Part shown: positions 8,022-52,480 of the stretch, one piece after another
Numbering within the stretch: the stretch's first letter is position 1
Layout: every line of letters starts with the position of its first letter
Origin: Chiloscyllium plagiosum
Lineage: Eukaryota
Assembly: GCF_004010195.1 (NCBI RefSeq)
Contig: NC_057718.1
Span: forward strand, 102,009,901-102,065,399
DNA: 55,499 nt
Reading direction: 5' to 3'
The notes under the pieces: model-generated
The model's database searches: none
What the model was told of the DNA's origin: nothing
Seen by the model: the letters and a program-made list of their open reading frames with translations, nothing else
Position numbers and translations under genes: made by a program

Positions 8022-8250
8022 AAATAAACCTGTTGCACTATAACCTGATTTGGAGCGGCCAGTGTTGGACTGGGGTGTACAAAGTTAAAAGTTACACAGC
8101 ACCAGGTTATAGTCCAACAGGTTTATTTGGAATCACTAGTGCTGCTCCTTCATCAAGTGGTTGACTGAAAACTAGTGCTTCCAAATAAACCTGTTGGACT
8201 ATAACCTGGTGCTGTGTGATTTTTAAGTTTATCCCAGTCCAACACCTGCA
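8022..8250. mobile_element. Palindromic Penelope-like non-autonomous element, family C (decayed)
   Basis: Inverted arms caccaggttatagtccaacaggtttatttg / caaataaacctgttggactataacctggtg, with a remnant ctccttcatca at the centre. Confidence 0.65.
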
Positions 8251-8744
8251 CCTTCACATTACATATAGCACTGAACCACTGAAGGACATTTTAGGAAGTT
8301 TAAGACCAGGTGCTTAACAAAGCAAATATAAAAGACAGTATTCCAGAAAAGGGAAAGACAGCGAGGTTTACAGAGGGAATGCCAGAGCTTCGGGCCCAGA
8401 CAGCTGAAAGAATGACCACCAAGAACGGAATGATTCAGATCAGTGGATGGACAGGTGGCCAGTATTAGAGGGTCGTAGGAAATCAGGAACCTTTCTGATG
8501 ACGATTCTCAAGAGAGTGAGGTAAAATCTTTCAAAAAGCTAGAGGTTGGTGACAATCATCTGTTTCCAAACAAACTGATTCTGCAAAAGGAAGTTTCCAC
8601 AGCCACACAACAGCCTCCATCGGTGAAATGAAGGGCAAACCGTTGTGAAATTATGGTGTCAGATTAAAGGCCGGAAGACAGAGAGAAAGGCATTTCTTGA
8701 TGATAATGGCCTGTCATGTTAAAGCAAATAACCCTTCAACATTA

Positions 8745-9300
8745 ACTTTTCTTCATTTATTTATATATATTTATTACCCATCTATGGTTGCTCCTTGAGA
8801 AAGTGGGGGTGAGCTGCAGAGTCCACATTCTGCAGATTGTGCCATAATGCCCTTAGGGAGGGAATTGCAGGATTGTGACCCAGTTACAGTGAAGGAACGG
8901 TGATATATCTCCGAGTCAGGATGGTGAGTGGCTTAGAGGGGAACTTACAGAGGGTGGTGTTCCCATATATCTGCTGCCCTTGTCCTTCTAGATGGAACGC
9001 ATCACAGGTTTGGAAGGTGCTGTTGGAGAAGCCTTGGTAAGTTACTCCAGTGTACCTTGAAGATGGTACACACTGCTGCAACTGAGTGTCGGTGGTGGAG
9101 GAAGTGGATATTTGTGGGTGTGGTGCCAATCAAGCAGGTTGCTTTGTCCTGCATGCTGTCAAACTTCTTGAGTGTTATTGGAGCTACACCCATCCAGGCA
9201 AATGGGGAGTATTCCATCACACTCCTGACTTGTGCCTTGTAAGTGGTGGACAGGCTTTGGAAAGTCAGGAGGGGAGTTACTTGTCACAGAATTTCCAACA
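8745..9300 (-). mobile_element. L2/CR1-group LINE 3' fragment
   Basis: MEYSPFAWMGVAPITLKKFDSMQDKATCLIG resembles an ORF2 C-terminus; the same tail recurs at 19630-20050 and elsewhere. Confidence 0.7.
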
Positions 9301-9429
9301 TCTGAATTGCCAGAATTCTGGAAGTAATGAGTCCAGGATTGATATTGGGAAAAAAATTCTCTGTATTTACACAGCACCTGCTTCAACCATAGGCTTTTAT
9401 AGCCAATGAAGTACTTTGAATTGTATAGA

Positions 9430-9650
9430 AACGAAACCAGAAATTGCCAGAAAAGCTCAGCGGGTCTGGCAGCATCTGTGAACAGAAATCAGAGTTAACG
9501 TTTCGGGTCCGGTGACCATTCCACAGAATGGACCCTAAAACGTTAACTCTGGTTTCTCTCCACAAATGCTGCCAGACTTGCCGAGATTTCCCAGTGATTT
9601 CTGGTTTTGTTTCTGATTTATACGGCATCTGCAGTTCTGTCAGTTTTCAC
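9430..9650. mobile_element. Palindromic Penelope-like element, family B (decayed)
   Basis: Imperfect inverted arms aaaccagaaatt...gtctggcagcat..agagttaacgttt / aaacgttaactct...atgctgccagac...atttctggttt. Confidence 0.65.
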
Positions 9651-11675
9651 ATTGAGGTGTAGTCCTTGTTATAAAGTCATAAAGTCATAGAGTCCTACAG
9701 CACAGAGACAGGCTCTTTGCCCCAAACTGGTCTATGCCGTCTATGCTAACCCCATTTCCCTGCACTTGGCCCACATCCCTCTAATCCTTTCCTATGCATG
9801 TATATGTCCAAATGCCTTTTAAATGTTGTTAATGTACCTGCGTCAACCACTTCCACTGGCAGCTCATTCCATATGCACCCCACCCTCTGTATAAAAGAGT
9901 TGCCCCTCAGGTTCCCTTTTATTCTTTCCCCTCTAACCTTAAACTGATGCCCTCCTATCCTTGATTCCCAGCGCGGGGAAAAAGACTGAATGCATTCACC
10001 CTTTCAATGCGTCTCAAGATCTCATACGCTTCCACAAGATCCCCCCTCAGTCTCCCCTCTGTGATACAGGATGGGATTATAGGGACCATCAGCCTTGGAC
10101 CTGCACTGAGAATTATTTACACATGAACATTTCAGGTGCACGCACGTGTGACCACGTAAAAGGTTACTGAGGAAATTGGCGGCAGTATAATTCAAGGCAC
10201 AGGTGGGAGAAGAAGATGGAGCACCCAATTATCTGGTGCTCAACCCCCATACACTGTGCCCTGGCACTGCACTCAGTGCCCTCGCCACATGTGCGGTGAC
10301 GCTGGTACCGGGACCCAGCTGAAGAACACTCTCCCACAGAATTCTTCAACGGCATCCTGTCTCACACACTCATCTCTGTATCCACTCAACGCTTTATTCA
10401 ACGGCACTTGTCGTGACTTTTAACAAAACTGCAACCATTCCAACCTGTCCCAATTCCACTCGCCAGATCATAATCTAGAGGGCATAGGTTTAAAGTGAGA
10501 GGGGAAAGATTTAAAAGGGACCTAAGGAGTAACTTTTTCACACAGAGGGTGGTGCACATATGCAAGTGGTGTAGGCTGGTACAATTACATCATTTAGAAG
10601 GCATCTGGATGGGTATAGGGTTTAGAGGGATATTGGCCAAGTGCTGGCAAATGGGACTAGATTAGGTTAGGATATCTGGTCGGCATGGAACGAAGGGTCT
10701 GTTTCTGAGCTATACATCTCTATCACTCTATGATTCTAAAGTAAGATCTCATTTCTACTCACCATCCTCACTCACTATAAGAATAGGAACAGGAGTAGGC
10801 CATTCGGTCCCTCGAGCCTGCTCTGCCATTCAACAGGATCATGGCTGATCCAAGATTTTTTATGTCCAACCTCCTGCTCTTTTCCCATAACCCTTCCTTC
10901 TCCGACTGATCAAGAATTTATCTCAGTCTTAAATATAAACAAGGACTCTGCCCCCACAGTTGTCTCTGCGGCAAGGAATTCCAAAGACTCACAACCCTCA
11001 GTGAGAAGAAATTCCTCCCCATCTCCGTCTGAAATTGGAGCCCCATTGTTCTGAGACTGTACCCTCTGGTCCTAGCCTCTTCCATGAGGGAAAATATCCT
11101 GTCAGCAATGACCCTGTCAAGCCCCTTAAGAATCCTCCACCTTCATTCACTGCCTTCACTCACTCATGGCTTCATACACCCCCACCCAACCTGCTTCCTG
11201 GTCACCCTATTCCCGATCTTGTATCTGCCAGCCTCCCACTCACTCGCAGGGAACGATAAACAGCAAAGAGGCAGAGCAGTGAGAGGGAGGGAGCAGTGAT
11301 GAGGGGAGGTTTTGAGGCAGAGCTGAAAATGTGTTGCTGGAAAAGCGCAGCAGGTCAGGCAGCAGGTCAGGCAAGACAAAGTATATGAGCAGATGTCTGC
11401 ATTATTTATGCAAATCACAGCGCAGAAAGATCTTTTGTACAGTCAGAGATGATGCAAAGACTGATTGTACTCCTCTCATTGCGATCTGCGTCTAGCTATC
11501 AATGGATTGAACACTTTTTCAGGCAAGATTGGACAGATTTTTAATCAGTAGCATCATGTGGAAAAGGAAGGAAAGAGGGTTTGAGGGTTATCAAACCAGC
11601 TGTGAACTCATTGAATGGTGGAGCAATGTCAATGGGCTGAATGGCCTACTTCTGTCCTAGGTATTATGGTCTTTT

Positions 11676-11887
11676 GGAGAAAGTGAGGTCTGCAGATGCT
11701 GGAGATCAAAGTTGAAACTTTATTGCTGGAACAGCACAGCAGGTCAGGCAGCATCCAGGGAACAGGAGATTCGACGTTTCGGGCACAGGCCCTTCTTCCT
11801 GAAGAAGGGCCTGTGCCCGAAACGTCGAATCTCCTGTTCCCTGGATGCTGCCTGACCTGCTGTGCTGTTCCAGCAATAAAGTTTCAA
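11676..11887. mobile_element. Palindromic Penelope-like non-autonomous element, family A (young)
   Basis: 87-bp inverted arms 11712-11798 and 11801-11887; flanking direct repeat attatggtcttttgg at 11663-11677 and 11887-11901. Confidence 0.85.
11799..11826 (+). ncRNA. Minimal type I hammerhead ribozyme motif
   Basis: CTGAAGA-A-GGGC-ctgt-GCCC-GAAA-CG-TC: conserved core, 4-bp stem II, palindromic minimal stem III (ACGT). Confidence 0.7.
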
Positions 11888-12455: not shown

Positions 12456-13360
12456 GAGTTATTCCTGGAATGGATGGGTTAGTTTATTGGGAAAGTTGGA
12501 CAGGTTGGGTTTGTATCTGCTGAAGTTTAAAAGATAAAGAGGTGACTTGATTGATTAAAGATCCTGAAAGGATGCAGGTGGCAATGATGTTTCCATTTGT
12601 TGGAAGAACTAGAACGAGGGGATCGCTGTTTAAACTGATGGGTCACCCATTTAAGACAGAGTGCAAGGGAATTTTTTTCTCACAAAGTGGGGTTGGTGGT
12701 TCTTTGGAATTCTCTTCCTGAAAAGTTGGTAGGAGCAGAATCTTTGTGTAGTTTTCAGGCAGAGGTAAATAAAGGTAGCGATTATACCTGCACTCGCTTT
12801 CTGAGCATTTTAACTCAGTACCAATCTCCTTTTCCCCATTACCCTGCACATTGCTCCTATTTAAATAATTATCCAATGTTCCTCTTGAATGCCTCAATTG
12901 AACCTGCCTCCCCCACATTTCCAGGCAGTGTATTCCACACCATAAAAACCTACTGGGTGAAAATGCTTTTTTTGCCTCATCTCACAATTACTTCTTTCAT
13001 AAACTATTTTGAATCTGTGCACTATAGTTCTCCATCTACTTGAATGGTGAAGAGCTTATGCTCGAAACGTTGAGTCTCCTGCCCCTCAGATGCTGCCTGA
13101 CTCGCTGTGCTTTTCCAGCACCACACGTTTTGACTGGGAAGAGTTTCTCCCTATTCACTCTGACCAGCCCCTTCATGATCTTGAAAATCTCTATCCGATC
13201 TTCCCTGAGCTTGCTCCTCTCCAAGGTCCTCACTTCTTCAACTCTTCCTCCTCAATGGAAGGTCTCATCCCAGGAACCATTGGTAAGTGAGGAATGGTCG
13301 GGGGAAGGGTGATGGAAGTTAATCGGGGGTAGGTGGAACCATGGAGTGATCAAATCCACA

Positions 13361-13690: not shown

Positions 13691-13907
13691 TGTAATATTA
13701 TCGATTGGCAGAACAGACTTGAGAGGCTATCTGTTTTTCTCCTGCTCCTAATTCTGGTATTGATATAACTTATCATTTATATCATTTTAATCTGCCATAT
13801 CCTCATCTGCACTGAAGGTATTGAGAGGCTCTGGTGTTGAGGTGGGCCTTACATTGCTGAGGTTCAGTTGTGATTGTCAGCAGGTGACTTGACTGATCCA
13901 ACCACGA

Positions 13908-14123
13908 GTTGAAACTTTATTGCTGGAACAGCACAGCAGGTCAGGCAGCATCCAGGGAACAGGAGATTCGACGTTTCGGGCACAGGCCCTTCTTCAGAAG
14001 AAGGGCCTGTGCCCGAAACGTCGAATCTCCTGTTCCCTGGATGCTGCCTGACCTGCTGTGCTGTTCCAGCAATAAAGTTTCAACTTTGATCTCCAGCATC
14101 TGCAGACCTCACTTTCTCCTCGA
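13908..14123. mobile_element. Palindromic Penelope-like element, family A (young, opposite orientation to the 11676 copy)
   Basis: 89-bp inverted arms 13907-13995 and 13997-14085; direct repeat tgatccaaccacga at 13894-13907 and 14124-14137. Confidence 0.85.
13970..13997 (-). ncRNA. Minimal type I hammerhead ribozyme motif (sense in the pcsk2 pre-mRNA)
   Basis: Minus strand reads CTGAAGA-A-GGGC-ctgt-GCCC-GAAA-CG-TC. Confidence 0.7.
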
Positions 14124-15037: not shown

Positions 15038-15163
15038 GGAGAAAGTGAGGAATGCAGATGCTGGAGATCAGAGCTGAAAATGTGTTGCTGGAAAAGCGCA
15101 GGTCAGGCAGCATCCAAGGAGCAGGAGAATCGACGTTTCGGGCATGAGCCCTTCTTTAGGAAT
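15038..15163. mobile_element. Family A single arm with mutated hammerhead core, abutting a family C arm fragment
   Basis: ggagaaagtgagg...gacgtttcgggcatgagcccttctttagg; the minus-strand core reads CTAAAGA instead of CTGAAGA. Confidence 0.7.
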
Positions 15164-15794
15164 TTGTGATTTCAAATAACCTTTTGGACTATAACTTGGT
15201 GTCGTGAGACTTCTGACTTCTGTTCACTAATGTCCTCTAGGGAAGGAAACTGCCAACCTTACCTGGTCTGGCCTACATGTGACTCCAGACCCATAGCAAT
15301 GTGGTTGACTCTTAACTGCCCTTTGAAATGGTTCAGAGAGCCATCTAGTTTATAAGGGATGGATAATAAATGCTCACCTTGCCAGTGTCTCTCACATTCC
15401 ATGAAAGAATAAGGGAAGAAAATATGTACTTTAACACCCACAATTTAACATAGTCCGAGAAAAAGCAATACCAAACTTTCTCAGCATGCAAATCACATCC
15501 ACACCGGCCTTTATCTGTACCACAGTGAAACTGTACAGATGAGACAAAATGTCACTCTCTTCGCTCCCACATCTCCTTTTGTAATGATGTGAGCCAGCCC
15601 CGCAGTAAATTCAAAGCAAACCGTATCTGATGCAAATTACATTTGATAACATTCATACAAAATTAGAGAACAGAAATGGACTTTTGAATTATCAGGTACT
15701 TTCAAGGGTTATGTTTTATTCTTTCTGAATTTGTTCGCTAAGGCTTGAATGATTGTTTTTGCTCCCTGCTGATTAGCTGACCACATTATGAGTT

Positions 15795-20050: not shown

Positions 20051-23000
20051 TGAATCAAATTGAATTAGCTTTATGTCGAGAGTATGTTGTTGGAAAAGCA
20101 CAGCAGGAATAATGAAGGGTTCCAGCCCGAAACATCAATTCTCCTGCTTCTCGGATGCTGCCTGACCTGCTGTGCTGTTCCAGCAACACACTCTCAACTC
20201 TGATCTCCAGCATCTGCAGACCTCACTGTCTCCTGAATTAGCTTACAGATCCTAGAAATAAATTAGAAAATAGAGAAAAATAAAGTTCAGAATAACAGTC
20301 CTTCCAGCCCAGTCTACTTTGGCAGTTAGCCACCATAGCCGGGCCTTGATTCTTGTCCATGGTCAGGCCGTGACTCCAGTCCACAACCAGGCCTTGACTT
20401 GAGACCACAGCCTGTCCTTGACTCCAGTCCACAGTCAGGCCTTCATTCCAGTCCAAAGTCAGGCCTTGACTCCAGACCACAGCCTGGCCTTGACTCCAGT
20501 CCACAGTCGGGCCTTGACTCCAGACCACAGTCGGGCCTTGACTCCAGTCCACAGCCTGGCCTTGACTGCAGTCCACAGTCGGGCCTTGACTCCAGTCCAT
20601 GGTCGGACCTTGACTCCAGTCCACAGTCGGGCCTTGACCCCTGTCCACAGTCGGGCCTTGACTCCAGTCCATGGTTGGGCCTTGACTGCAGACCACAATC
20701 GGGCCTTGACTCCAGACCACAGTCAGGCCTTGCCTCCAGTCCACAGTCGGGCCTTGACTCCAGACCACATTTGGGCATTGACTCTAGTCCCCAGCCTGGC
20801 CTTGACTCCAGACCACAGTCAGGCCTTGCCTCCAGTCCACAGTCGGGCCTTGACTCCAGACCACAGCCAGTCCTTGTCTCTAGACCACAGTCAGGCCTTG
20901 ACTCCAGACCACAGTCAGGTCTTGACTCCGGTCCATGGTTGGACCTTGACTCCAGTCCACAGTCGGGCCTTGACTCCAGACCACAGCCTGTCCTTGACTC
21001 CAGACCACAGTCGGGACTTGACTCCAGACCACAGTCGGGCCTTGACTCCAGTCCATGGTTGGGCCTTGACTGCAGACCACAATCGGGCCTTGACTCCAGA
21101 CCACAGTCGGGTCTTGACTCCGATCCATGGTCGGACCTTGACTCCAGTCCACAGTCGGGCCTTGACTGCAGTCCACAGTCAGGCCTTGACCTCAGACTAC
21201 AGCCTGTCCTTGAACCCAGACCACAGTCGGACCTTGACTCCAGATCACAGTTGAGCCTTGACTCCAGTCCACAGCCGGTCCTTGACTCCAGACCACAGCC
21301 TGTCCTTGACTCCAGACCACAGTCGGGCCTTGTCTCCAGACCACAGTCAGGCCTTGACTCCAGTCCATGGTCGGGCCTTGACTCCAGTCCACAGTCGGGC
21401 CTTGACTACAGTCCACAGCCTGGCCTTGACTGCAGACCACAGTCGGGCCTTGACTCCAGTCCATGGTCGGGCCTTGACTGCAGACCACAGTTGGGCCTTG
21501 ACTCCAGTCCACAGTCGGGCCTTGACTCCAGTCCACAGTCGGGCCTTGACTCCAGACCACAGTCAGGTCTTGACTCCAGTCCACAGTCGGGCCTTGACTC
21601 CAGTCCACAGTTGGGTCTTGACTCCAGTCCACAGCCGGGCATTGACTTCAGACCACAGTCAGGCCTTGACTGCAGTCCACAGTCGGGCCATGACTGCAGT
21701 CCACAGTCGGGCCTCGACTGCAGACCACAGTCGGGCCTTGACTCCAGACCACAGTCAGTCCTTGACTCCAGACCACAATCAGGCCTTGACTGCAGTCCAC
21801 AGTCGGGCCTTGACTGCAGACCACAGTCGGGCCTTGACTCCAGACCACAGTCGGTCCTTGATTCCAGACCACAGTCTGGCCATGACTGCAGAGCACAGTC
21901 GGGCCGTGACTCCAGTCCACAGTTGGGCATTGACTCCAGACCACAGTCGGGCCTTGACTCCAGTCCACAGCCTGTCCTTGACTCCAGTCCACAGTCGGGC
22001 CTTGACTCCAGTCCATGGTCGGACCTTGACTCCAGTCCACAGGCTGTCCTTGACTCCAGACCACAGCCTGTCCTTGACTCCAGACCACAGTCAGGCCTTG
22101 ACTCCAGTCCACAGCCTGTCCTTGACTCCAGACCACATTCAGGCCTTGACCCCAGACCACAGTCGGGCCTTGACTCCAGTCCACAGTCTGGCCTTGACTC
22201 CAGAGCACAATCGGTCCTTGACTCCAGACCACAGTCGGGCATTGACTCCAGACCACAGTCAGGCCTTGACTCCAGTCCACAGCCTGGCCTTGACTCCAGT
22301 CCACAGTCGGGCCTTGACTCCAGTCCATGGTCGGACCTTGACTCCAGTCCATAGCCTGTCCTTGACTCCAGACCACAGCCTGTCCTTGACTCCAGACCAA
22401 GGTCGGGCCTTGACTCCAGTCCACAGCCTGTCCTTGACTCCAGACCACATTCAGGCCTTGACACCAGACCACAGTCAGGCCTTGACTCCAGTCCACAGTC
22501 GGGCCTTGACTCCAGACCACAGTCGGGCCTTGACTCCAGTCCACAGTCGGGCCTTGACTCCAAACCACAGTCGGGCCTTGACTCCAGACCACAGTCGGGA
22601 CTTGACTGCAGTCCACAGTCGGGCCTTGACTCCAGATCACAGTCAGGCCTTGACTCCAGTCCACAGTCGGGCCTCGACTGCGGACCACAGTCGGGCCTTG
22701 ACTCCAGACCACAGTCAGTCCTTGACTCCAAATCACAATCAGGCCTTGACTGCAGTCCACAGTCAGGCCTTGACTGCAGACCACAGTCGGGCCTTGACTC
22801 CAGACCACAGTCGGTCCTTGACTCCAGACCACAGTCTGGCCTTGACTGCAGTCCACAGTCGGGCCTTGACTCCAGTCCATGGTCGGACCTTGACTCCAGA
22901 CCACAGCCTGGCCTTGACTGCAGTCCACAGTCGGGCCTTGACTCCAGTCCATGGTCGGGCCTTGACTCCAGTCCACAGCCTGTCCTTGACTCCAGACCAC

Positions 23001-31048: not shown

Positions 31049-31149
31049 TTTCTGGATCAGTGGTGCTGGAAGAGCGCAGCAATTCAAGCAGCATCCGACG
31101 AGCAGCAAAATCGACGTTTCTGGCAAAAGCCCTTCATCAGGAATAAAGG
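31049..31149 (-). mobile_element. Single-arm family A-related element with hammerhead core
   Basis: Direct repeat cataatctcat at 31038-31048 and 31150-31160; minus strand 31113-31140 reads CTGATGA-A-GGGC-tttt-GCCA-GAAA-CG-TC. Confidence 0.75.
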
Positions 31150-33114
31150 CATAATCTCATCCAATGGCAGAACATGCATGAGGGGCCGAATGGCCTAATC
31201 CTGCTCCTAATTGATACATCCACATGCAAATATGGATGAGAGAAAGAACAGACAGACATACTTTTGTGAAACTAAATTCTTATGCTATTGAGATCACAAC
31301 CGCTACAGTCTGATGTTCTGTTACCCTCATAAAGCAATCTAGAATATTTCTTCAATAATTTAGGCAATAGACCATATTCATATCTTTCTTGCATGATTCA
31401 AATACATAAAATTCAAGAGATGAAGAATTATTGATATCTTGGATATAATTCTGAATTCCTGATTACTCAACCGGAAAAGCACAAGTATGAATCTGTACAA
31501 ATTTCCTTCACTGGCTGTAATTAAACCCTCCACAAACAGTAACTGGCATTTGTGCTTATTCATGAGTCAGCCAACATTTAATCTTTGACCCATTTTGAAT
31601 TTTCACAGTAGAAGTTATATTGCCACTGCCAGGATTAGAAGTCCAGAAAAGTATTTATAAAACATATTTAATTTACTGAGAGCATAACAAACGTGTAGTT
31701 TGCTGATAAAGCAATGCTACTTGCAGAATCAGAAGAGGCCTTACAAAATAGGAGAGATGCAACAAAATCTGCAAGCTTTAAATAAAAACTGAAAGAACTG
31801 CAAATGCTGTAAATCCGAAACAAAAAACAGAAATTGTTGGAAAAGCTCAGCAGGTCTGGCAGCATCCGTGGCAAGAAATCAGAGTTGATGCTTCGCGTTC
31901 GGTGACCCTTCCTCAGATTTGACTCTGCTTTCTCTCCATAAATGCTGACACGCCTGCAAAGCCTTGCCAACATTTTCTCTTTTTGTTTCTTTAAGTTTTG
32001 AATATGGATTGAGTAAGAGCATCAAAAAGACAAAAGCAATGTTTTTGGGAGAAGCTAGAGTGAAAGTTGAGTAGACGTTGTCCTACTGTAATGAATCAAT
32101 AAGTCTATTTCGGACAAATGGTAATGAAGATGGCAGAGGGGATATGGAAGTCAGAAGCAGGTTAGATGCCACCAGTAATAGTTTCGTGTGAATCCAAGAT
32201 GTGTAAACAACAAGAAAACTCAAATTTGCAACAAGGGAAAAACTCACAAGATTCTTTATTTTATTCACATTCATAACCTCTGAAATATGAATAATAAGTA
32301 AAAACTCTGGATGCGAAGGCAAAAATTTAATATAGAAACCAAAGTCAATTTATTATCTTGCAGGCTACCGCCAACGTATTCTGGCTGCCTATCTTGTACA
32401 TAACTTGATCTATTCATGGTTTCAACTCATACTGCTGCTGATGCTTGTTGCAACCCCCATCAGGTGATCTGCTGCCATGGTATGTCACATTCATTTATCT
32501 TGCCCCAATCTGCCACATCCACTGAAGATCACCGACAACCGCTCAGTAACATCCATCATCCAGCTCTCCACTGCATCTCTCGAAGAGATCTCTGTGGCTT
32601 TTCAGCTCAAATCAAATGGACAAAATACTGACATTTTAATTTCTGGATGCCATTTCTTAGAGTTCTTTCTGCTCTTGAAATTTTGCTAATTCACGACTGA
32701 TTGCAAAATTCATGCCATTGTTCATTTTTTGTTCTGAAACCATCAGCAATTGTTTTCCAGGAGCTAACAGATGTTTATATACTATGCAGCGACTGAGGAT
32801 TAAAGCTTATGAAGTAATGTTGGTGATGGAGTAATGCAGTGACTAGTAATGATTTCATTTCTGAAGAGCTTACTATATTATGCCAGTGATATAAAAATAG
32901 AATGTATTGATTAAGGAAGTTCTTATGTATGAAATTCAGAAAGTATAAGGCTGCAGATGAAAACAGTTTTAGTATTTAATTAGTGGTATAGAGAAAATAT
33001 AAAACAAAAAGAAAACATATAGTATCATTGTTATTTTCTGCTTGAATTGGTATTCTTGCAAATTGTCCTGATGCATGTAAATTGAAAAGCTTCAGCCAAA
33101 TGTGTCCTTTTTTT

Positions 33115-33305
33115 CTGGATGTCGAAGTGCCCATGTTGGACTGGGATGGACAAGGTCAGAAATCACACAACGCCAGGTTATAGTCCAACAGGTTTATTTG
33201 AAATCACAAGCACTCAGAGTTTACCGGTCGAAGGAACAGCTTGGAAACTTTGTGATTTCAAATAAACCTGTTGGGCTATAACCTGGTGTTTTATGATTTC
33301 TGACT
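33115..33305. mobile_element. Palindromic element, family C (decayed)
   Basis: Inverted arms ccaggttatagtccaacaggtttatttgaaatcacaa / ttgtgatttcaaataaacctgttgggctataacctgg; both ends flanked by ccttttttt. Confidence 0.7.
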
Positions 33306-34283: not shown

Positions 34284-37200
34284 ACTATATCTAACTCCTT
34301 CTTGAAAACATTCAATGTTTTGGCCACAGCTAATTTTAGTAATGCAGGCTCACCACTCTCTGGGTGAAGAATTTTCCACTTATCTCAATCCTAAATGGCT
34401 TACCCTATATCCTTAGACCGTGAGCCCTGGTTCAGGACTCCCTGGTCATTGAAAACATCCTTCCTGCACCAGCCCTTCCTGTTAGTATTTTGTTGGTTTC
34501 CTAGAGATTCCCCTCATTCCCCTAGCTTCAGAGAATTTAGTTCTAACCAATCCAATCTCTGTTCACGTGTGAGCGCTCCCATCCCAGGAATCCGTCTGGG
34601 TTCTGAGAAAGGGGCACCAAACCCAAAACGTTAACTCTGATTGCTCTTCACAGATGCTGCCAGATGTGCTGAGCTTTCCCAGCAATTTCTGTTTTGTTTG
34701 GATTTACTCCATCCGCGGTTGTTTTGCATTTTTTTCTGGCTGTTAAAGCTTTGTTGCTCCCCCTCCAATTCCAGAACACCCTTCTTCAGATAAGGAAACT
34801 AAAACTGCAGGTGTGATCTCACCGATGTCCTGTACAATTGCAGCAAGACATCCAAGCTCCTCCACTCAAATTCTCTCGCTATGAAGACCAACACACCATT
34901 TGCGTTCTTTACTGACTGTTGCGTAATTACTTTCTGCGACAATATACAAGGACACCCAAGTACTATTGCATATTCCCCCTCTCCCAATCTAATGCTATTC
35001 AGATAATCTGCCTTCCTGTTTTTGCTAGCAAAGTGAATGACCTCACATTTATCCACAGTTCATTTCCATGTATTTGCCCACTCACTCAACTGTCCAAATA
35101 CTTAATGACTCAGCTTCAGCTGCTTTCTGTAGCAACAAATTCCTCAGGCTCACAACTCTCTGAAAGAAGAAGCTCCTCCTTGTCTCTGTATTAATCTCTG
35201 CCTGAGTTGTTTTAACAGTTATTAATCCCTCTATCCTTTGTTCCTAAGCTCCTGCTCACCCCCAAACTTATTGCCAACTCCTGCCCACACTAACTCCCCC
35301 TCCTCATACACTTCATGGCCTAGCCACTCATCCAAGTATCCACCATCACAGACCTCAGAAGCCATGTGGTCCTCTTACTCATACACACTTGATGCTGAAA
35401 AAAATGCCCCATTCATACAACCTATTTAAAGCTGCTAAATCTCACTGAGTGAGTAATCCTTTAGAAAATCAAACAAACATATATTCACTCCTCCACATAA
35501 AAAGAAGTCATATTTTAATAGTGTCTTCAAACTGTCAATCTAAGTATCATTTTAGAATCGCCTGCTAATATAATATAGCTTTTGGAACTCAGCCAAGCAT
35601 TTATACTGAAATAACAACAGCCCTTTGGGAAATATCAACAAACTATAAATAGATGCTAATTTTTCTGTCAGTCTAGCAAAAAAAAGAGTTTTTGAGCTCT
35701 CATTGAAAGCTATATTTGCCTTTTAAAGCTTAAAGAGCATAGACTTTAAAAAAAAGATCACAACAGTTCTGAGAATTGTATTCATCCTTTAAGTATGTAA
35801 TACAATTCTACCCCATCAGTTTGTGGCTCCCATGCTGTGGATTAAAGCTCTTGCAGTAGCCACAATGGGGTCTGTTTGAGCTCTGACAGCCCTATGGAGT
35901 TCAGGTCTCCCCCTACTCTGCCAATCCCACCATGGGAATCACCCCCTTCACCCTTTCCCATAGCAATCAAAACTGGACTTGTTGGGAGTGCAGGTCGAAT
36001 TTTCATATTTAGTTCCTGCCCATCATTTTTAAATATGGGCAACACCTGAAGAATTCAAATTCAACTAAATAAATATAGATTAAAACAATGATTTCAGTAA
36101 TGATGATTGTGCAACTTTTTTTTCGTTCATTCACAGGGTAAGGGCATTGCTGGCTAGGTCAGCAGTTATTGCCCATCCCTAATTTCCCAGAGAGCAGTTA
36201 AAATGTCAACCTCATTGCTATGGCTCTGGAGTCACATGCAGTTCCTTTTCCTAAAGGAGATTAGTGAACCAGATGCATTTCCCTGAGAATGGAGTCATAA
36301 TTACCATTAGACTCCTAATACCAGATTTTTTAAAAAAAAATTCAGATTCCACCACCTGCTATGGCATGATTTGAACCCAGGTCCCCAGAATATTCCCTGC
36401 GTCTCTGGATTAACAGTTGACATATAATACCTCCAGGCTACTGCTTCCCCCAAACTTTGGCATTGCCATTTTAAAAGCAATTCTGTTTACTGACGTATCT
36501 CAGCTAGAGCTTTTGTTTGGTCCACACATGATTCCAGACTCACGCCAATACGGTTGATTTGGAAATGATTTAACAGGTTCTCTAGCCAACAGCAATAAAA
36601 GTTGACATTAGCAGCAACACACACATTCGGCCCATCAGACCACCTTCGACAGCACTCACAAACCCATAACCTCCATCCACTAGATGGACAAGAGCAGCAG
36701 CTGCATGGGAACACCACTGCCTGAAAGTTCCATTCCAGTCACTCACCATCCTGACTTGGAACTACAACACCATTCCTTCAGTGTAATAGGGTCAAAATTC
36801 TGGAATTCTCTTCTAGAGAGCACTTACTGTCTATGGACATCTACAGTTTGAGAAGAAAGCTTACCATTACTTTCTCCAAGACAAGGAGTGGTGGGTAGTA
36901 AATGCTGGTCCAGCCAGTGACTCTCATGTTCCATGAGTGAATAACTCTCTATTCCTTGCTTCTTTGTGTGTTTATGCATTTTATCCTTAAATGTATCAAT
37001 GCCATTCACCTATACTGTCAGTATGGCAAGAGGTCCCCCTGTGGTGCAGTGGGTAGTATCCCTGTCTCTGAGCCAACAGTTCCAGGTTCGTGAGCCTCAC
37101 CAGGACATGGTGGCAAAGGAAGGTCCTTTTGCAATGTGACCAAACAGGTTGTGAATCTTTCCAGTCTGTCTGATGGACAAGCAGTAAGAGGAGGAGAGAC

Positions 37201-37676: not shown

Positions 37677-37866
37677 TGACATGGAGGTACCGATGTTGGA
37701 TTGGGGTGGTCAAATTCAAAAGTCATGCAACACCAGGTTATAGTCCAACAGCTTTATTTGAAATCACAAGCTTTCAGAGCACTGACCCTTCCTCAGGTTC
37801 ACCTCTGAAAGCTTGTGGTTTCAAATAAACCTGCTGGACTATAACCTGGTGTCACATGACTTCTGA
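37677..37866. mobile_element. Palindromic element, family C, with degenerate hammerhead core
   Basis: Direct repeat ctctgtt(a/g)ccagtta at 37662-37676 and 37867-37881; minus strand 37768-37796 reads CTGAGGA...GAAA-GC-TT. Confidence 0.75.
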
Positions 37867-38559
37867 CTCTGTTGCCAGTTAACAACACTGTCAGCCTCCA
37901 TAAAGAAATACTCTATAATGCTTTGGGATATCTTCAGTAAGTTGAAAGATCTTTGAGTAGAAGAAGACACAGTCATATTGTTCTGTTGAATAAGTCAATT
38001 GTAAAGGTGATAACATTGTTGAAATAAGTTAAATATTGAATAAGGTGCAATTGGTATTCATGAGGAAATTCTTGACCATTGTAATTTCCCTGATGCTAAA
38101 TATGACTTCTTCCCATTCAACCAGATAAAACGTGAACCCAAATCAAGGATTAAGATGTTGGCTAAACCTACACTGTGTCTGAGATGCTAGAAGAACAAAG
38201 AATTGAAAAAAAAATTAACACCACCATTCAAAAAAGATTGAAAGGATAAGCCCAACAATTATAGACCAGACATCTTATTTTAGAGATGGGAAACTTTTAG
38301 AAACAATTATTTAGGGTAGAATTAAAAGAAAGGCAAAGTTACTATAGTCGTATCAGACCATAGGGCTGCTCTCTCATTAGAGAGAGACAGAGATGACTGG
38401 TAATGGTTCAACCCAAAAATCACCATGTCTCAGGCAAGGAAAGGTTGAGATGGAGAGTCCTTTGTGGTACTGTCACCCAATGTGGCAATTTGAACTTATC
38501 CCATGCTGTTAGTGGCACTCTGCAATGCAAGGAGAAAGTGAGGCTGGAGATTAGAGTTG

Positions 38560-42106: not shown

Positions 42107-42109
42107 TAC

Positions 42110-43580: not shown

Positions 43581-44327
43581 TTTACCTCAGCTGGTGCATT
43601 GTGTCTACACCAGAGTATCTTCAGGCTGAGAAGAGATTTGATATCTACAAAAATAGAGACTGACGACAGGCAAAGGTCACTCAACCTCTTGAACCTGCCC
43701 CACCATTCAATAAGATCATATCTGACTTGATTATTTCATGTTCATGCCTACCCTACACAAATATATTTAGGAAGGATATATCGGCCTTGGGGGGGATCGG
43801 GGGGAGTACAACATAGGTTTACAAGAATTAAAATTGGACTTCAGGAGTTAACTTATGAGGAGACATTTTACAAATTACAGCTATTTTCTCTAGAATTTAG
43901 GTGGTTCAGGGATGATCTGATTGAAGTCTTCAAAATGTTAACAGAAAAAGACAGGGTAGATAAAGATAAACTATTTCCACTGGTTGGGGATTCCAGAACC
44001 GGGGGCATAGTCTGAGAATTGGGGCCAGACTGTTCAGGAGAGATGTGGGGAAGCACTTCCATACACAAAGGGTGGGAGAAGTTTGGAACTCTCTTCCACA
44101 AACTTCAGTGGGTGCTGGATCAGTCATTCATTTTAAATCAGAGATAGATAAATTCTTATGAGGATATGGGATATGGGTAGGCTGCAGGTCAGCCACTGAG
44201 TAGTGGAACAGGCTCAAGAAGCTGAATGGCCTACTCCCTGTATTTTCTAGGAGAAAGTGAGGACTGCAGATGCTGGAGATCAGAGCTGAAAATGTGTTGC
44301 TGGAAAAGCGCAGCAGGTCAGGCAGCA

Positions 44328-44470
44328 NNNNNNNNNNNNNNNNNNNNNNNNNNNNNNNNNNNNNNNNNNNNNNNNNNNNNNNNNNNNNNNNNNNNNNNNN
44401 NNNNNNNNNNNNNNNNNNNNNNNNNNNNNNNNNNNNNNNNNNNNNNNNNNNNNNNNNNNNNNNNNNNNNN
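44328..44470. other. Assembly gap (143 N)
   Basis: N run beginning inside a family A arm (44250-44327). Confidence 0.99.
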
Positions 44471-45212: not shown

Positions 45213-45399
45213 CTGAAAATGTGTTGCTGGAAAAGCGCAACAGGTCAGGCAGCATCCAAGGAGCAGGAGAATCGACGTTTCGGGCATGAGCCCTTCTTCA
45301 GGATTGATTCCTGAAGAAGGGCTCATGCCCGAAATGTCGATTCTCCTGTTCCTTGGATGCTGCCTGATCTGCTGTGCTTTTCCAGCAACACATTTTCAG
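45213..45399. mobile_element. Palindromic family A element with hammerhead cores on both strands
   Basis: Arms symmetric about 45306; minus 45274-45301 CTGAAGA-A-GGGC-tcat-GCCC-GAAA-CG-TC; plus 45311-45338 CTGAAGA-A-GGGC-tcat-GCCC-GAAA-TG-TC. Confidence 0.85.
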
Positions 45400-47856
45400 C
45401 TACTCCCTGTATTTCTATTTCATCCCCATACTTATTAAGTATCTATCCACCTTTGCCTTAATAATATTCTTACTGCTTCTATCAGCTTTTCAGAAGAGGT
45501 TTTCAAACACTCCCAACCCTTCATGAGAGAAAATAAATGTCACCTCTGTTTTATGTGGGCGCCTCCTGTTGCCAAACAATGATCCCTTATCTCTAGATTC
45601 TCCCATAAGAGGAAACACCCTTTCCACATCCACCTTGTCAAGATACCTCAGAATCTTAAATGTTTCGATCTAGTCACCCATTACTCTTCAAAACTCCAGT
45701 GTCTACCTAGCCAAATCGTTCCTCCTTAGACAATCTATCTACTCTAAGTACAGGTGCAGTAAACCACAAATAATGATGCTAACACTGAATACAGCACACC
45801 CAATGCCATCTCACCAATGCTCTGTATAAGTGAAATATAACCTCCCTATATTCATCTCCCACCCCAACAATAAACAATAATATTCAATCAGCTTTTCTAA
45901 TTATTTGCTGTACCTTCATACTAACCTTCTGATGTTCATTTAAAAGCTATCTGGACAGGTACACGAATAGGAAAGGTTTAGAGGGACATGGGCCAAATGC
46001 AGGCAAATGGGACTAGTTCAGTTTGGGAAACCTGATTGGCATGGTCAAGTTAGATCACAGGGTCTGTTTCCATACTGTATGACTCTCTGACTCTGTGACA
46101 CTCAGATCCCTCTGCATCTCAACGCTCCACAGTCTCTCACCATTTAGATAATGTGCTTTTCTTCCTTGTTCTTGCTAAAAAAAAAGACAACTTCACATTT
46201 TCCCATGTTATGCTCCATTTGGCTGATCTTTTCCCACTCACTTAGCCTCTTCATATCCCTTTGTAGTTTGATTATGTCCACTCTGTGACTTAATTTCCTG
46301 TCTATCTTTTTGTAATCAGTATATTTAGCAACCAAACCTTTGGTACTTTCACCCAAGTCATTTGTATAAATGTAACCGCTTGCAACACCTTGTCAACCAG
46401 AAAATGGCCTCATTAGGCCAACTTTCTCTCTTCTGTCTGCTAGCTAATCTTCCATCCATGCCAATATCCTAGCCACTGCATATTTATCAACATCCTTTGA
46501 TGTAACAAATGCTAACCAGCATATCCACTGGTTCCCCTTTATCTGCAGCATGTGTTACTTTCTCAAAGAACTCCAATAAGTTGTGCAAGAGACCACATAG
46601 TTTCTTTTTTGAGGCTATAAACTGGAATCAAAATTGTACCACTACATAAGTGAAATACCAGGAGTTTAGCACCTTGGAAACATCAAGTGTAGCTCATTGT
46701 TAGCTGTGACAGACAATATTGCTTTTTGATGCAGTGAAAGAGATCAGTCAAGATTAAGTAGGACCGAGAGTCTTGAAGTTAAGTAAATTCTGTCTGGCAA
46801 CAGCCACCCAATCAGTGGATATGCAATTTGTTATAAAGATGTACATGATAGGGCAACAGAAACATCAGACCTTGCGAATGGAGAGCACAGTCTATAAAAG
46901 CATTAGGGGCATAGATAGGGGAAATAACCAACAGCTTTTCCCCATGGTATGGGAGTCTAAAACTAGAGGGCATAGGTTTAAGGTGAGGGGAGTAGAGATT
47001 CAAAAGGGTTTGGGGGCAACTATTTTCACACACAGGGTGGTGAGTGTCTGGAATGGGCTGCCAGAGGTCGTGGTGGAGGTGAATACAATTTCATTATTTA
47101 AGAAACATTTAGACAGGTACATGGAGGGGATAGGTATGGAGGGATATGGACCAAATGCAGGCAAATAGGACTAGAATCATGGAATCATAGAAGCCCTCCA
47201 GTGTGGAAAAAGGCCATTCAGCCCAACAAGCCCAATTATGAAAACTGAGTGGCATGGCAAGTTGGGCCAAAGGGCCTGTTTGCATTCTGTGGACCTCTAT
47301 GATTCTATGACTGCCTATGATGCCCTTCCACCTCTCTCTCTTTCTGGGTGGGGTATGCAATAGAAAACCAAGAAAGCTTTATCTACCTATAATATGTGTC
47401 AAACTATAGGTCATGTGCCTGCCTTATTTGTAAATGAGTACGTATTTGGGGTTTTTGAAAGAGTGCAGTTTAAGTTACTTTGTAGCAGATAAGATAACGT
47501 CATTTTTTCTTTGCCTTTTTGGTTTTCTGTTATTGACAAAATCTGGTGTGAATTGCTTTCATCCTGAATATCCATTGGTCAGGCAAATTTGGCATCTTTG
47601 TGATTTACTTCAGAATTTATACATTTTGTGATGGTTTGTGTAACAGTCAGGCATATATATCAATGTACACTTCCCAATTAAGCCATGTCACATGGTTAAA
47701 TCTAATTTCTCTTTCTCAAAACCCTGTTGACACTGATTATCTTGGACTTATTTAAATGTCTTGGCTGCAATTCCTTTAATAATGGGTTCAAACTCTTCCC
47801 ATTAAGTGTCCACGCAGAACAATATGTGATTTTATGCCCCTTGATATTGGACCAAA

Positions 47857-48138: not shown

Positions 48139-51100
48139 TAAAACATTGCATGTTTTGCTTCACATTATGGTTTACACTTTGGGACCAGTGTAATGATGAG
48201 GCTATGAATACTCAATGTTAACAAATGACTAAATTCTGTGACCTTACAAGCACAGCTAGACACAGACATCAAGACATTACTGTCTGAGTTGTGGCCTGTT
48301 CCTCTATCAGCTTCACTGTCTCATTAAATGACCGAGACACTGGGTATTAAAAAGCCATGGCTATCCCCTAAGCATGCCAGAAAACACTTAGCCAGCTGCA
48401 TTTATGAGTAAACCAATTATAACATTGTGAGCAGTCCTCATTATTGCCAAATAGTATTGACAATTAATTTTTACAAGTATGGAGTCTCATATCATCACAT
48501 TTTAATTATTACAGGAAATTTTAAGAGACTAAAATCTAAAATGAAATCCTTCCACCCCTCTCTTTTCTTATATTTTTATTGCAATCTCATCATCTTTACC
48601 TCTATCTGGCTTTCTGCACAGAATTTTATTTTGAATTAAACATTCTAACTTAAATGCCTGAATGTTTTAATGACTGTTGAATGTTTTCAATCTGACTGGT
48701 TAAGGAGATGCACTGTTGCTTATATTGTCACATGCTGACAGATCCTCTATAGCTGGACCCATACCGTTTTTAATTCCCAGTGACTGTATGTTTCAATACA
48801 AAAAACAGCAAGTCTGTGGGCAATTCCAAACATTATCAGCAGAGATTGATGTTCATTCTCCACTGGCCTGAAAGACTGGACTAAAACATTAGATGCTCAA
48901 AATATGTAAAAAAAAAAGGAATTAAAATAAGGAACAAAAAAACTAATTAAATGTATATAAAAATGGTACTTAATTTCAATTTAATTGTTTTTCTTCCTTC
49001 AATTTTTAGAAAAATAGTGTTTTTGCAGGATCTGAAGATAGGCAACATTTGTTTAAATATTTCATATTATGATTCCCAAGTGTAAGAAATCAGATGGCTC
49101 AAATTTTAAGTGGATCCTGGAAGATTTTTGTTCTCAGAGAAATAAGCTAGTTTCTTGGCTAAGGTGTTTCATTTAGGTATAAATAGGTGTAAATGTACTG
49201 TCACTATCGTGTGTAGGAAGCACTGTGAATCAATTCTATAAAAGGACACATTAACAGAACAAGCTAATGTAAATAACAGTCATTTTCCAAATATATCGTA
49301 GATTATTTTCCAACTTGCTTGATTATTTTACCCCTCCTTTGCAAATTGTACCACCATTAATTCTACTGGATCAGTGGTCTCATCGCAGACATAAACCAAG
49401 CCCTAGATATTATGATCTGTTTCATCAGTAGTAGAACAGGCATAAAATTTTTCATTAAGTCAGTCAGAAAAAAAACTTTGTATCCCTATAATACTTCAAG
49501 GCCTGGAGGGAACCATTTTCTCCAGTCCACTGCACATGAGTAGGAAGTAACTATTGCTAGGAAGTGAAAGAAAACTCCTTTGCGAAATGTAAAAGTAGTT
49601 TTACATATAAATAAAATATTAATGTTTATCAATGCTAACACTAAGATCATATCAGCCAGAAATACAATTTCTGAAGCCTTCAGCTTCTTTCAAAGTTGTA
49701 GCCTTTATTCATGGGTGGGACTAGATTGGCTTGGGATATCTAGTCAGCATGGATGAGTTGGATGGGTCTGTTTCGGTGCTGTACATCTCTATGATTCTAT
49801 GACGTTGATGGCGTTTTTTTCTTTGCAATTTAATTCAAAATGAATAGGCAGCAAATTTGAAGTGACAACGTGTTCTATATCAGGATGATTTTTCTTAAAA
49901 ACAATTTGTGTTTTTCATCCCACATCTGCTTTTAACAGGAGACACAAAGCATGAGCATCTTTCAGGAATTTGTTCCTTATTAGTCTGCACAGACAGTAAT
50001 ATCTTTTAATAAGCAGGGCAATGACAAAGTACAATAAATAGCACAGTCACTCACGTCCTGCAATGCTCAGAGAACATTTCTTTCCTGTTGATAATCCTAC
50101 CATGAAGGTTGACTTTATGAAAATAGCAGAAAAGCTTTTACAGCCAATCAAGAGAATGCTGAACTATCAAATCACATTATTGACCAAAAGCAACCATAAC
50201 CATCAGAAAATTAACTTAGCTGACGTGGAAATCGATGGAAACCTGGAAGTGCAAATACATTGTTCGTGCATAACCTCAAAGCAGCAGAAAATTGTCACAG
50301 CTATTTTAGTTAATAAGAGTGGAGATTGACGTGACACAGTCTAATTAAATAGATTATGTTTGTTCAGAAATAGGGACATCTCTAAATTTGGTGAAACTCT
50401 TCATCTTCAGGCGTGACTGCTCCATGAAGCACAAATCTGAGATAAAGGTCAAAAATACCTGTCAAAGTTCGTATTGTGTCTCTTATTCACATTCACAGAT
50501 CATCAAGGCACTTAACTATGAGGTAAAATTTCAATGATTTGAGATAAACTGCAATTATGGTTAATTGAACCAAAAGATTGCAATATGTGCAACTACATGA
50601 CATCATTGTTGTAAAGCAAATCTCCAATGAAAGATGTGCCTTATTTAGACATAGGGCCTGTGGTCGTTACAATTTGGTTGCATGACTAAAAACAAAACAC
50701 TCAGAATGCTGGAGAAGACCAACTGAGATTACCAGCTTGAACATATGACTTCTGTCCTCCATGTTGAGTACAATAATCCCATTCCCACCTCAGCAATGTC
50801 TTTTACATGTGTGTCTTCGTTCACTTTGCTTTCTACAGAGCAGACTCATTTTCTCCTTTACATACTTATTTTACATCTCTATCCCTCCTTCACCACCAAT
50901 AAGCACTCCCTTTGCCTTTTACTCTGGTCACCCTCACAATCTGTTCCACCCGCTCCTCCTCCCCTTCTGTTAAATGCACAGAAACAATGTTTTCCAGTCC
51001 CTTTTGCTCCGAAAGAAGAGTCATATTGGACTCAAAACGTTAACTTATTTTCTTCCTTCACAGATACTGCCAGATTTGCTGAGTTTCTGTGGTACTTTCT

Positions 51101-51469
51101 ATGTTTATTCCAATTCTCTCTTGGCTCTCCCGCATTCCTCACCCTCTCTGCACCCGAACATGTCCAAAACTGTGCTACCTGATTGCTGGTCACCCATCAT
51201 CATTTGCAATTATCTTTGTTTTCAAATCCCTTTGCATCCTCACTATCACTGATGTCCTCCATCATTCCACAACCATTCACAACCTCTTACTCCTCCAATT
51301 CTGACCTTTTGTACACTGTCAATTTTAAATGCTCCCTACTGGTGATCATGCTTTCAACTGTTTTGAACCCAACATTCATGAATCCTCTCCCTAAAGCCTC
51401 TCCAACCCTCTGCCTGCTCTAGGAGAGTCCCAAAGCCTGTTTCACTGACCAAGCTAGCAATGCCAGCAA

Positions 51470-51810
51470 TGGGCATTACTCAGTGGCACCAGGGACCCAA
51501 GTTTGATTCTAGACCCAGGTTTGATTCTAGCCTCAGGTGACCATCTGTGTGGAGTTTGCACATTCTCCCCGTGTCTGCATGGGTTTCCTCCGGGTGCTCC
51601 GGTTTCCTCCCACAATCCAAAGATGTGCAGTTTAGGTGAATTGGCCATGCTCAATTGCCCATAATGTTCAGGGACATGTAGGTTAGGTGCATTAGTCAGG
51701 GGTAAATACAGGGTATTAGGGTAGGGGGATGAGTCTGGGTGGGTTACTCTTTGGAGGGTCAGTGTGGACCTTGTTGGGCTGAAGGGCCTGTTTCCACACT
51801 GTAGGGAATC
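51470..51810 (+). mobile_element. HE1-type V-SINE
   Basis: V core and tail gaagggcctgtttccacactgt. Confidence 0.8.
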
Positions 51811-52480
51811 TATGCCTACATCCCACAAATTTAAAAGAAAGCTTTTAGCTGTCTGTCCAAATATTGCCTCATTCTTGATAAAGGGCTTATGCCCGAAACG
51901 TCGATTCTCCTGCTCCTCAGATGCTGTGCGTTTCCAGCACCACACTCTTGACTCTGATCTCCAGCATTTGCAGTCCTCACATTTTCCATCGCCTCATATC
52001 TGTCTTAGTGTCAAACTGCGTTTGGTCTTGTGAAGGATCTGGGAGCTTTTTAAACCAACTTAAGGTGCTATATAGATGCAAATTGTGGTTATCACTTTAG
52101 TCAATAAAATAATCTTAAACAGGATTACAATATCTTTAATGAGTGAATTCTACAACCAAATCAAAGCAATCACGAGATATATTTTAACACAGTATTTCCC
52201 TCCTTAACCTGCGAGGAAGGGGCTAATTCAATTGAGATTCATTTTCACCAATTGTCATTCATCATCATTAAAGTCAAAAGATATCCAATTTTGGCACTAA
52301 CATTACTTCAGCCTACAAGCTCAAACACAAAAATGTGTTCCTATCAGTCAAATAATGATCAAAGTGCTGTTTCCCTGCTTCATGTGGAGAAAGTTAGGCA
52401 AATAAACAAGTCTGCTTTTGTAATTGATTTGCAACAGTCCTGTATTTATAAAGAAAAGATGTTCAGGAGATTCCCTGTGT

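What the first reader, a model, noticed from the sequence alone, without database searches (positions are those of the whole stretch)
8022..51990. At least three sequence-distinct families share the same hairpin-plus-hammerhead architecture
Family A (11676, 13908, 15038, 20075, 31049, 44250, 45213, ~51870), family B (~3330-3810, 9430, ~31790, ~34600) and family C (8022, 33115, 37677) have different arms, though A and B share some similarity. Where the centre is readable it follows CUGANGA-A-stem-GAAA-NN-UH, with a different stem II in each (GGGC/GCCC, GGGTC/GACCC, GGAGC-type). Several copies have 10-18 bp direct repeats. A conserved core with different compensated stems suggests selection on RNA structure and repeated origin of such elements. 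About 15 copies in 55 kb implies a major genome component.
Basis: partly seen in the sequence, partly recalled or inferred. Interest (0 to 1): 0.7.

Follow-up and report, generated by a model that had tools for sequence, protein, structure and literature searches.

The report
Penelope hairpin stubs, two lineages
These short repeats are real and very abundant, but they are likely ordinary leftovers: end pieces of Penelope-like jumping genes, each carrying the tiny hammerhead ribozyme motif already described for that class and often pasted head to head, which is predicted to lock the ribozyme inside a hairpin rather than create a new kind of working RNA.

Summary
All 15 listed sites exist, plus 6 more. 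Only 9 of the 15 are two-armed hairpins. The core fits the published minimal hammerhead of Penelope-like element (PLE) terminal repeats (pLTRs). It is intact in 7 of 17 window arms; read majorities restore it for A and C, and an in-window majority does so for B.

A and B are homologous along the arm (z 5-18), while C is unrelated (z at most 1.4). That makes two lineages, not three independent origins. The anatomy matches known PLE insertions: head-to-head arms, a 30-35-bp tail on one arm, and 10-15-bp target duplications. In hairpin form, stem II is predicted not to fold, covariation is not significant, and old B cores decay like their arms.

Best reading: truncated PLE stubs, each likely built from two cDNAs primed at the two target nicks. 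No reverse transcriptase or endonuclease frame was recovered, so membership rests on terminal anatomy. One extra: family C arms are polyadenylated 12-15 nt after an AATAAA lying just behind the predicted cut. The scan has noted this class before (70 notes, at least 11 genomes), including the poly(A) point in this genome.

The parts
11676..11887 (.). Family A young hairpin: long arm with tail (11676-11798, sense on -) head to head with short arm (11799-11887, sense on +, intact core at 11799-11826); 15-bp target duplication 11663-11677 / 11887-11901
13907..14120 (.). Family A young hairpin, inverted relative to 11676 and identical to it but for one C at the centre; intact core 13997-13970 (-); tail 14086-14120; 14-bp target duplication 13894-13907 / 14124-14137
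   Evidence: family edges at 13997 and 14120-14121 in reads
15038..15227 (.). Family A long arm (15038-15163, sense on -, one core mismatch) joined head to head to a family C short arm (15164-15227) that begins at about the predicted cut; no target duplication found for the A arm
20072..20233 (.). Family A degraded hairpin: internally deleted short arm plus tail-bearing long arm; 11-bp target duplication 20061-20071 / 20234-20244
31049..31149 (-). Family A single tail-less arm with intact core (31140-31113, outer stem II pair broken); 11-bp target duplication 31038-31048 / 31150-31160
44250..44328 (-). Family A long arm cut off by an assembly gap; its left flank shares 15 bp (44231-44245) with the right flank of the 45213 hairpin (45400-45414)
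45213..45401 (.). Family A hairpin of two tail-less arms, each with a full core (45311-45338 +, 45301-45274 -); the arms differ at 5 body positions
51872..51988 (+). Family A single long arm, two core mismatches
13040..13135 (+).
11321..11364 (-). Family A fragment without core
3330..3808 (.). Family B complex: two tandem long arms (3330-3452, 3518-3637, sense on -) and one short arm (3716-3808, sense on +), with spacers
9428..9640 (.). Family B old hairpin: short arm with core (one mismatch), long arm 5'-truncated inside stem II
31795..31992 (.). Family B old hairpin: long arm with core, short arm starting at about the predicted cut
34600..34720 (+). Family B single long arm, two core mismatches
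51005..51112 (+).
53640..53752 (+).
30021..30098 (+).
8021..8262 (.). Family C hairpin, both arms long, both cores partly deleted; 27-bp duplicated fragment at 8021-8047
33120..33305 (.). Family C hairpin: long arm truncated in stem II, short arm with a degraded full core; 10-bp T-rich target duplication
37677..37872 (.). Family C hairpin: long arm (sense on -) with intact core 37796-37768, predicted cut 37768/37767, AATAAA 37758-37753, family poly(A) sites at 37741 and 37738; short arm with stem II deleted; 15-bp target duplication with one mismatch 37662-37676 / 37867-37881

Best explanation
These repeats are likely severely 5'-truncated insertions of endonuclease-bearing Penelope-like retroelements from two lineages (A/B and C), in which one or two copies of the roughly 90-125-base terminal segment carrying a minimal hammerhead motif sit alone or head to head between target duplications.

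Shown: the arm anatomy, fixed family edges, one-sided tail, target duplications, varied centres and the published core consensus.

Inferred mechanism: the element's enzyme makes a staggered cut 10-15 bp apart and primes reverse transcription at both nicks, starting at one of two internal sites about 30-35 nt apart, which gives the long and short arms. Both cDNAs run through the uncleaved hammerhead, stop at or shortly before its 5' edge, and are joined at micro-matches, so the hairpin is a by-product of insertion. The hammerhead is inferred to be selected in the parent RNA, where it would work as a dimer through its 4-nt palindromic stem III. In a read-through transcript of a stub it is predicted to be sequestered, and the copies then decay.
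For: (1) Core. It fits the metazoan min-HHR consensus point by point: extra base after A9, G-C first pair, palindromic 15.1-16.1, NUH.
(2) Anatomy. Head-to-head inverted truncated copy, a 30-40-bp tail on one arm and a target duplication are the described PLE pattern. They are seen here.
(3) Two arm ends about 30-35 nt apart in all three families match the two reverse-transcription start sites of the Anolis element, whose enzyme extends both strands and uses uncleaved RNA in vitro.
(4) In 5 of 9 hairpins (11676, 13908, 20075, 9430, 33115) the long arm has the tail and the short arm has 5' core bases that the long arm lacks, so neither arm is a plain copy of the other.
(5) Centres differ. Among the 9 hairpins only 11676 and 13908 nearly agree. 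The 13 strand-switch joints listed for C (15 joints shown, 9 more not shown) join 37781-37803 or 37753-37754 to varied partners between 37715 and 37766.
(6) 364 RNA reads continue upstream of the A core in non-inverted sequence with 0.55 agreement, pointing to a longer parent.
(7) Stem II probability is 0.0 in hairpins, while it forms in all 3 single A arms folded alone.
(8) B cores decay like B arm bodies.
Against: No PLE reverse transcriptase or GIY-YIG frame was linked to any arm. Pfam on 87 of the window's 132 open frames found only LINE-type domains and a host peptidase domain, and both protein searches with arm peptides failed.

11676 and 13908 have different target duplications yet differ by a single base, centre included, as expected if a hairpin were copied whole. 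In 31790 and 33115-like truncations, later deletions at a hairpin tip could also create asymmetric centres, and 31790 and 8022 are compatible with fold-back copying.

Family A cores are somewhat better kept than A arm bodies (7.1% against 11.7%), though the body figure includes subfamily differences. No target duplication was found for any of 6 B intervals. Cleavage and dimer formation were not tested.
Confidence: 0.72

Rival explanations
1. Same PLE origin, but the second arm is made by self-priming: one nucleic-acid strand folds back near the hammerhead and is copied, as proposed for rotifer Penelope elements.
For: Arkhipova et al. 2013 interpret palindromes at inverted junctions as self-priming (passage). 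Arms of the young A copies are identical over their shared length. In 31790 and 8022 one arm is a subset of the other.
Against: In 5 of 9 hairpins each arm has bases the other lacks. The two 45213 arms differ at 5 positions, two of them common family polymorphisms (equivalents of 14033 and 14059), though both are transitions that could be later mutations.
Confidence: 0.15
2. At least the young A subfamily is a non-autonomous hairpin element that is transcribed and re-inserted whole by PLE proteins acting in trans.
For: 11676 and 13908 are separate insertions (different 15- and 14-bp duplications) that agree in tail, arm lengths and all but one centre base. DNA contigs of run X1 extend over that centre with summed depth 12,519. 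pLTR sequences sufficed for trans-mobilisation in a rotifer (passage).
Against: That depth is about a thousandth of the arm peak (1.6e7). The other 7 hairpins in the window and the listed C joints have different centres. Many copies are single arms, one with its own target duplication (31049). Hairpin DNA may be under-read by short-read libraries, which weakens this count.
Confidence: 0.09
3. One reading: three independently arisen families under selection as a hairpin-plus-hammerhead RNA, a new retrozyme-like class.
For: Each family has its own paired stem II around one core. In A, variation among reads concentrates in loop II, at N7 and at CpG sites. In C, H17 varies only between U and A. 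One G-C to A-U change appears in each of the A and B stems.
Against: A and B are homologous. The hairpin is predicted to abolish the fold. Covariation is not above shuffles. Copies decay. No pile-up of RNA ends appeared at the predicted cut (a weak test). Retrozymes are tandem head-to-tail repeats, which these are not.
Confidence: 0.04

Closest known systems
[quoted passage not shown]
   Same: Core consensus, extra base after A9, G-C first pair, palindromic stem III without loop, short stem I, many families per genome, thousands of dispersed copies, occasional pairs on opposite strands. C's 4-bp stem I is the same as in the lamprey PLE row.
   Different: No shark or Callorhinchus entry found in the searchable supplement (file 1 not searchable). 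Their opposite-strand pairs were about 100-700 bp apart; here the cores are back to back.
Complex insertions of EN+ PLEs: inverted 5'-truncated pLTR, one-sided 30-40-bp tail, target duplication (Craig et al. 2021 PMC8557442; Arkhipova et al. 2013 PMC3846280; passages read)
   Same: Head-to-head inverted arms, optional tail on one arm, target duplication, tandem-plus-inverted arrays (3330-3808), start of a reading frame inside pLTR plus tail (a shared frame in A and B arms).
   Different: Here nothing lies between the arms (no ORF body). Duplications are 10-15 bp against 8-10 bp in the rotifer passages.
Poseidon element of Anolis carolinensis (Frangieh et al. 2024, PMC11167929; parts 1-2 of 4 read)
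   Same: Two reverse-transcription start sites define a tail about 85-120 nt behind the hammerhead. Both target strands are cut and extended, uncleaved RNA is the template, and no RNA-seq ends were found at the cut.
   Different: The parts read do not report head-to-head products. Clade assignment of the window's families was not possible.
Animal non-LTR retrozymes (Li, Clavereau and Pollet 2026, bioRxiv 10.64898/2026.07.22.740005; parts 1-3 of 5 read)
   Same: Non-coding, pLTR-derived, type I hammerhead, present in the one chondrichthyan sampled.
   Different: Defined as tandem head-to-tail units, each with a hammerhead. The window's copies are single or inverted.

Membership tests
PLE-associated minimal hammerhead (min-HHR) | Core CUGANGA + extra base, stem II with G-C first pair, GAAA, NUH | tested here: met
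   7 of 17 window arms intact; family majorities intact for A, B and C
PLE-associated minimal hammerhead (min-HHR) | Loop-less palindromic stem III (15.1-16.1) | tested here: met
   Palindromic in 11 of 17 arms; the 6 exceptions are CpG-type changes or a GAAG mismatch
PLE-associated minimal hammerhead (min-HHR) | Short stem I closing round the cut | tested here: inconclusive
   4 bp for the C read majority and for 45301; the common A form has a U-U mismatch; lost at the centres of 11676 and 13908
PLE-associated minimal hammerhead (min-HHR) | Self-cleavage as a dimer | not testable with these tools
   No RNA end pile-up in poly(A) single-cell reads, a library that would lose short cut products
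EN+ Penelope-like element insertion | Inverted 5'-truncated copy, head to head | tested here: met
   9 two-armed copies; strand-switch joints in other copies
EN+ Penelope-like element insertion | 30-40-bp tail on one end | tested here: met
   Long arms exceed short arms by about 30-35 nt in A, B and C
EN+ Penelope-like element insertion | Target site duplication | tested here: met
   7 of 18 intervals, 10-15 bp; 0 of 6 B intervals
EN+ Penelope-like element insertion | Parent ORF with PLE-type RT and GIY-YIG endonuclease | tested here: inconclusive
   None in 87 window frames or in arm-peptide searches; no whole genome held; 30-42-residue queries are weak
EN+ Penelope-like element insertion | Match to a named Repbase or Dfam family and clade | not testable with these tools
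   Neither library is available
Non-LTR retrozyme | Tandem head-to-tail units, each with a hammerhead | tested here: not met
   No tandem array of these units in the window; two tandem B arms at 3330-3637 only, one with a broken core
Non-LTR retrozyme | Abundant circular RNA from the unit | not testable with these tools
   Only poly(A) single-cell reads and assembled contigs were offered

The most novel reading that the evidence does not exclude
The hairpin stubs are a non-autonomous class of their own, the PLE counterpart of MITEs. They are copied whole by PLE proteins (young A pair), can be assembled across families (A arm joined to C arm at 15038-15227), and in family C seed very many poly(A) sites that lie 27-30 nt behind a dimer-dependent hammerhead, so that pairing of two host RNAs could cut off their tails.
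Probability: 0.1. Interest if true: 0.6.

Novelty: new member of a known kind. Interest (0 to 1): 0.24.

Why it matters
As a class this is known: minimal hammerheads in PLE ends and inverted-pLTR-plus-tail insertions are both in print. I found no paper on these families in cartilaginous fish (searches; Repbase, Dfam, subscription journals and preprint supplements were not visible).

Their value is as a very large natural record of how PLE inverted ends form, a step still open in the papers read. The two-cDNA model can be tested in the existing Anolis in vitro system. Family C may also be a sizeable source of poly(A) sites in this lineage. The repeats take up 5.8% of this window and likely cause assembly gaps, so they matter for annotation.

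Tried and rejected
Rfam at gathering thresholds: 0 hits. No whole genome is held, so no genome-wide census or family tree was made.

Searches for a parent ORF found nothing:
- Metagenome scan with a 22-base A motif: 0 hits.
- Pfam on 87 of 132 window frames of at least 85 aa (satellite, microsatellite and some SINE or overlapping frames left out): no PLE domain.
- Word search with a 42-residue A frame among longer proteins: none.
- Profile of 10 arm peptides: 3 hits, two apparently gene models that include arm sequence (one with a PIP5K domain) and one repeat protein; none has RT.

Reads: no RNA holder was listed for 28000-37900; the RNA runs were added by species label. Run X22 laid 0 reads, so it is no test. 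Neither lay showed a pile-up of molecule ends; this is uninformative about cleavage.

Covariation counts were not above shuffles; R-scape was not available. A PDB search with the host exon was uninformative. The Lunse et al. paper on dimer cleavage is not held and was seen only in reference lists. A supplement search of PMC11167929 found none of four terms.

Rejected: three independent origins, retrozyme membership, and copy-level selection on the hairpin.
Full report
CONTEXT. The window looks like shark DNA. That label is my recall of the SINE and LINE sequences in it plus the wording of earlier scan notes; no call named the organism. No whole genome is held. An exon with a peptidase S8 pro-domain lies at 42020-42319 on the minus strand (E 2e-4, below Pfam's cut-off), and a likely next exon lies near 15860-15990 (the likeness to a proprotein convertase is recalled). 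Many copies are therefore probably intronic.

OBSERVATION. All listed sites are real and six more were found; 23 segments cover 5.8% of the window. Read on the hammerhead strand, every family has one plan: core, predicted cut, about 55-65 bases to a first end point (short arm), and about 30-35 more to a second (long arm with tail). Nine of the 15 listed sites are two arms joined at their 5' ends; the rest are single arms, one three-arm array and one arm cut by a gap. A strict core with stem II occurs 5 times against at most 1 in 200 shuffles. Seven of 17 arms that reach the core are intact. Target duplications of 10-15 bp flank 7 of 18 intervals and none of the 6 B intervals; chance gave 6 of 1,500.

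FAMILIES. Downstream of the cut, A and B align with z 5.4-17.9 in all 24 comparisons among 3 A and 4 B arms, whereas 3 C arms reach at most 1.4 against either. A and B also share a short open frame beginning MLPDLL, seen in 15 window stretches, and in B it follows a pyrimidine tract and CAG. This may be the start of the parent's ORF behind a splice acceptor (inference; pLTR plus tail encodes 22 residues in a rotifer element). So there are two lineages. C differs from A/B as much as published min-HHR families differ within one genome, so shared descent of all cores from PLE ancestors needs no repeated origin.

READS, FAMILY A (window 13990-14135, four runs). Depth has sharp edges at the core's 5' end (13997) and the tail end (14120-14121). 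30,585 DNA contigs of X1 and 2,569 RNA reads of X21 were laid; X22 gave 0. The common variants in the core region fall in loop II, at N7 and at CpG sites, but the 85% likeness filter favours such a picture. 364 RNA reads run on upstream without inversion at 0.55 agreement, which points to longer parents. Only 3 reads and one contig showed a strand-switch joint at the core, so short reads say little about how common hairpins are.

READS, FAMILY C (37670-37803). The majority in organisms A, B and C restores a full core with a 5-bp stem II and a 4-bp stem I, and H17 varies between U and A only. Strand-switch joints in contigs of about single-copy depth have varied centres, often with one arm starting at 37797-37798. 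In RNA run X21, 439 plus 167 of 1,327 laid reads end in poly(T) at 37738 and 37741, 12-15 nt after the AATAAA at 37758-37753. First mates lie mostly on + (about 990 against 230), and several haplotypes are present. I infer polyadenylation of hammerhead-sense RNA from several loci, probably host transcripts, since the upstream loose ends differ. Internal priming at other copies is not excluded. Depth does not drop at the predicted cut, but cut products of about 30 nt would be lost from this library.

STRUCTURE AND SELECTION. For all five intact cores inside hairpins, the outer stem II pair has predicted probability 0.0. Single A arms form stem II in 3 of 3 folds; the one C arm folded gives a shifted helix. 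In-window covariation is one G-C to A-U change each in A and B, reached by 44 and 134 of 500 shuffles. B cores mismatch at 12 of 77 invariant bases against 98 of 593 in arm bodies; A cores at 7 of 99 against 78 of 667. This fits selection on parents followed by decay of copies.

MECHANISM. The layout is flank, reversed long arm, short arm, flank, with tails outward. That is what two target-primed cDNAs from a staggered cut would give. The Anolis enzyme cuts and extends both strands, starts at two internal sites that define the tail, and uses uncleaved RNA, which explains why arms keep the whole core. In 5 of 9 hairpins each arm holds bases the other lacks, which argues against simple fold-back. 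Against this reading: 11676 and 13908 differ by one base in 212 despite different target duplications; later deletions at hairpin tips could mimic asymmetry; and no parent ORF was recovered. The two-cDNA wording also stands in earlier unreviewed scan notes, which are not independent evidence.

COMPARISON. The core meets the min-HHR definition (PMC4209133), and the insertion shape meets the EN+ PLE description (PMC8557442 passages; PMC3846280 passages). It fails the tandem criterion for retrozymes (bioRxiv 10.64898/2026.07.22.740005; its supplementary tables, which list the chondrichthyan families, were not seen and may bear on novelty). PMC2377424 (abstract and passages), PMC6765202 (passages) and PMC6431247 (passages) added only background. 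Seven literature searches showed no paper on these families or on poly(A) use of a pLTR.

VERDICT. Real, abundant and of a known kind: new member families, interest 0.24. Confidence that these are PLE terminal stubs is about 0.95; confidence in the two-cDNA route is about 0.72.

Noticed in passing
window 20333-24506: 24-bp satellite, 174 copies, 85% matches, starting about 100 bp after the A copy at 20072-20233.
   Followed up: no
window 15038-15227: An A long arm meets a C short arm head to head, the C arm starting at about its predicted cut. It is either a cross-family insertion or a nested insertion with deletion; no duplication found for the A arm.
   Followed up: partly
window 44231-45414: The A arm at 44250 and the hairpin ending at 45401 share a 15-bp flank across an N gap and about 740 bp of other repeat DNA. 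This is one composite insertion or a mis-assembly caused by the hairpin.
   Followed up: partly
window 37738-37758: Family C AATAAA about 10 nt behind the predicted cut, with poly(A) tails 12-15 nt further on in 606 of 1,327 laid RNA reads.
   Followed up: partly
window 3398-3421, 3582-3608, 53664-53685: B arms have a pyrimidine tract and CAG directly before the shared MLPDLL frame, like a splice acceptor. Two public gene models carry this peptide.
   Followed up: partly
window 50690-51112: A B arm preceded by about 290 bp of non-inverted sequence and then an inverted arm fragment; possibly a longer truncated parent end.
   Followed up: partly
window 42020-42319 and about 15860-15990 (minus strand): Likely first two coding exons of a proprotein convertase gene (Pfam S8 pro-domain; translation).
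   Followed up: partly
window 52484-52906 (minus strand): 141-residue acidic open frame, probably an exon of a neighbouring gene; no Pfam match.
   Followed up: no
window 2-1064 and 54712-55497 (minus strand): LINE fragments: endonuclease and RT at the left end, zf-RVT at the right end.
   Followed up: no
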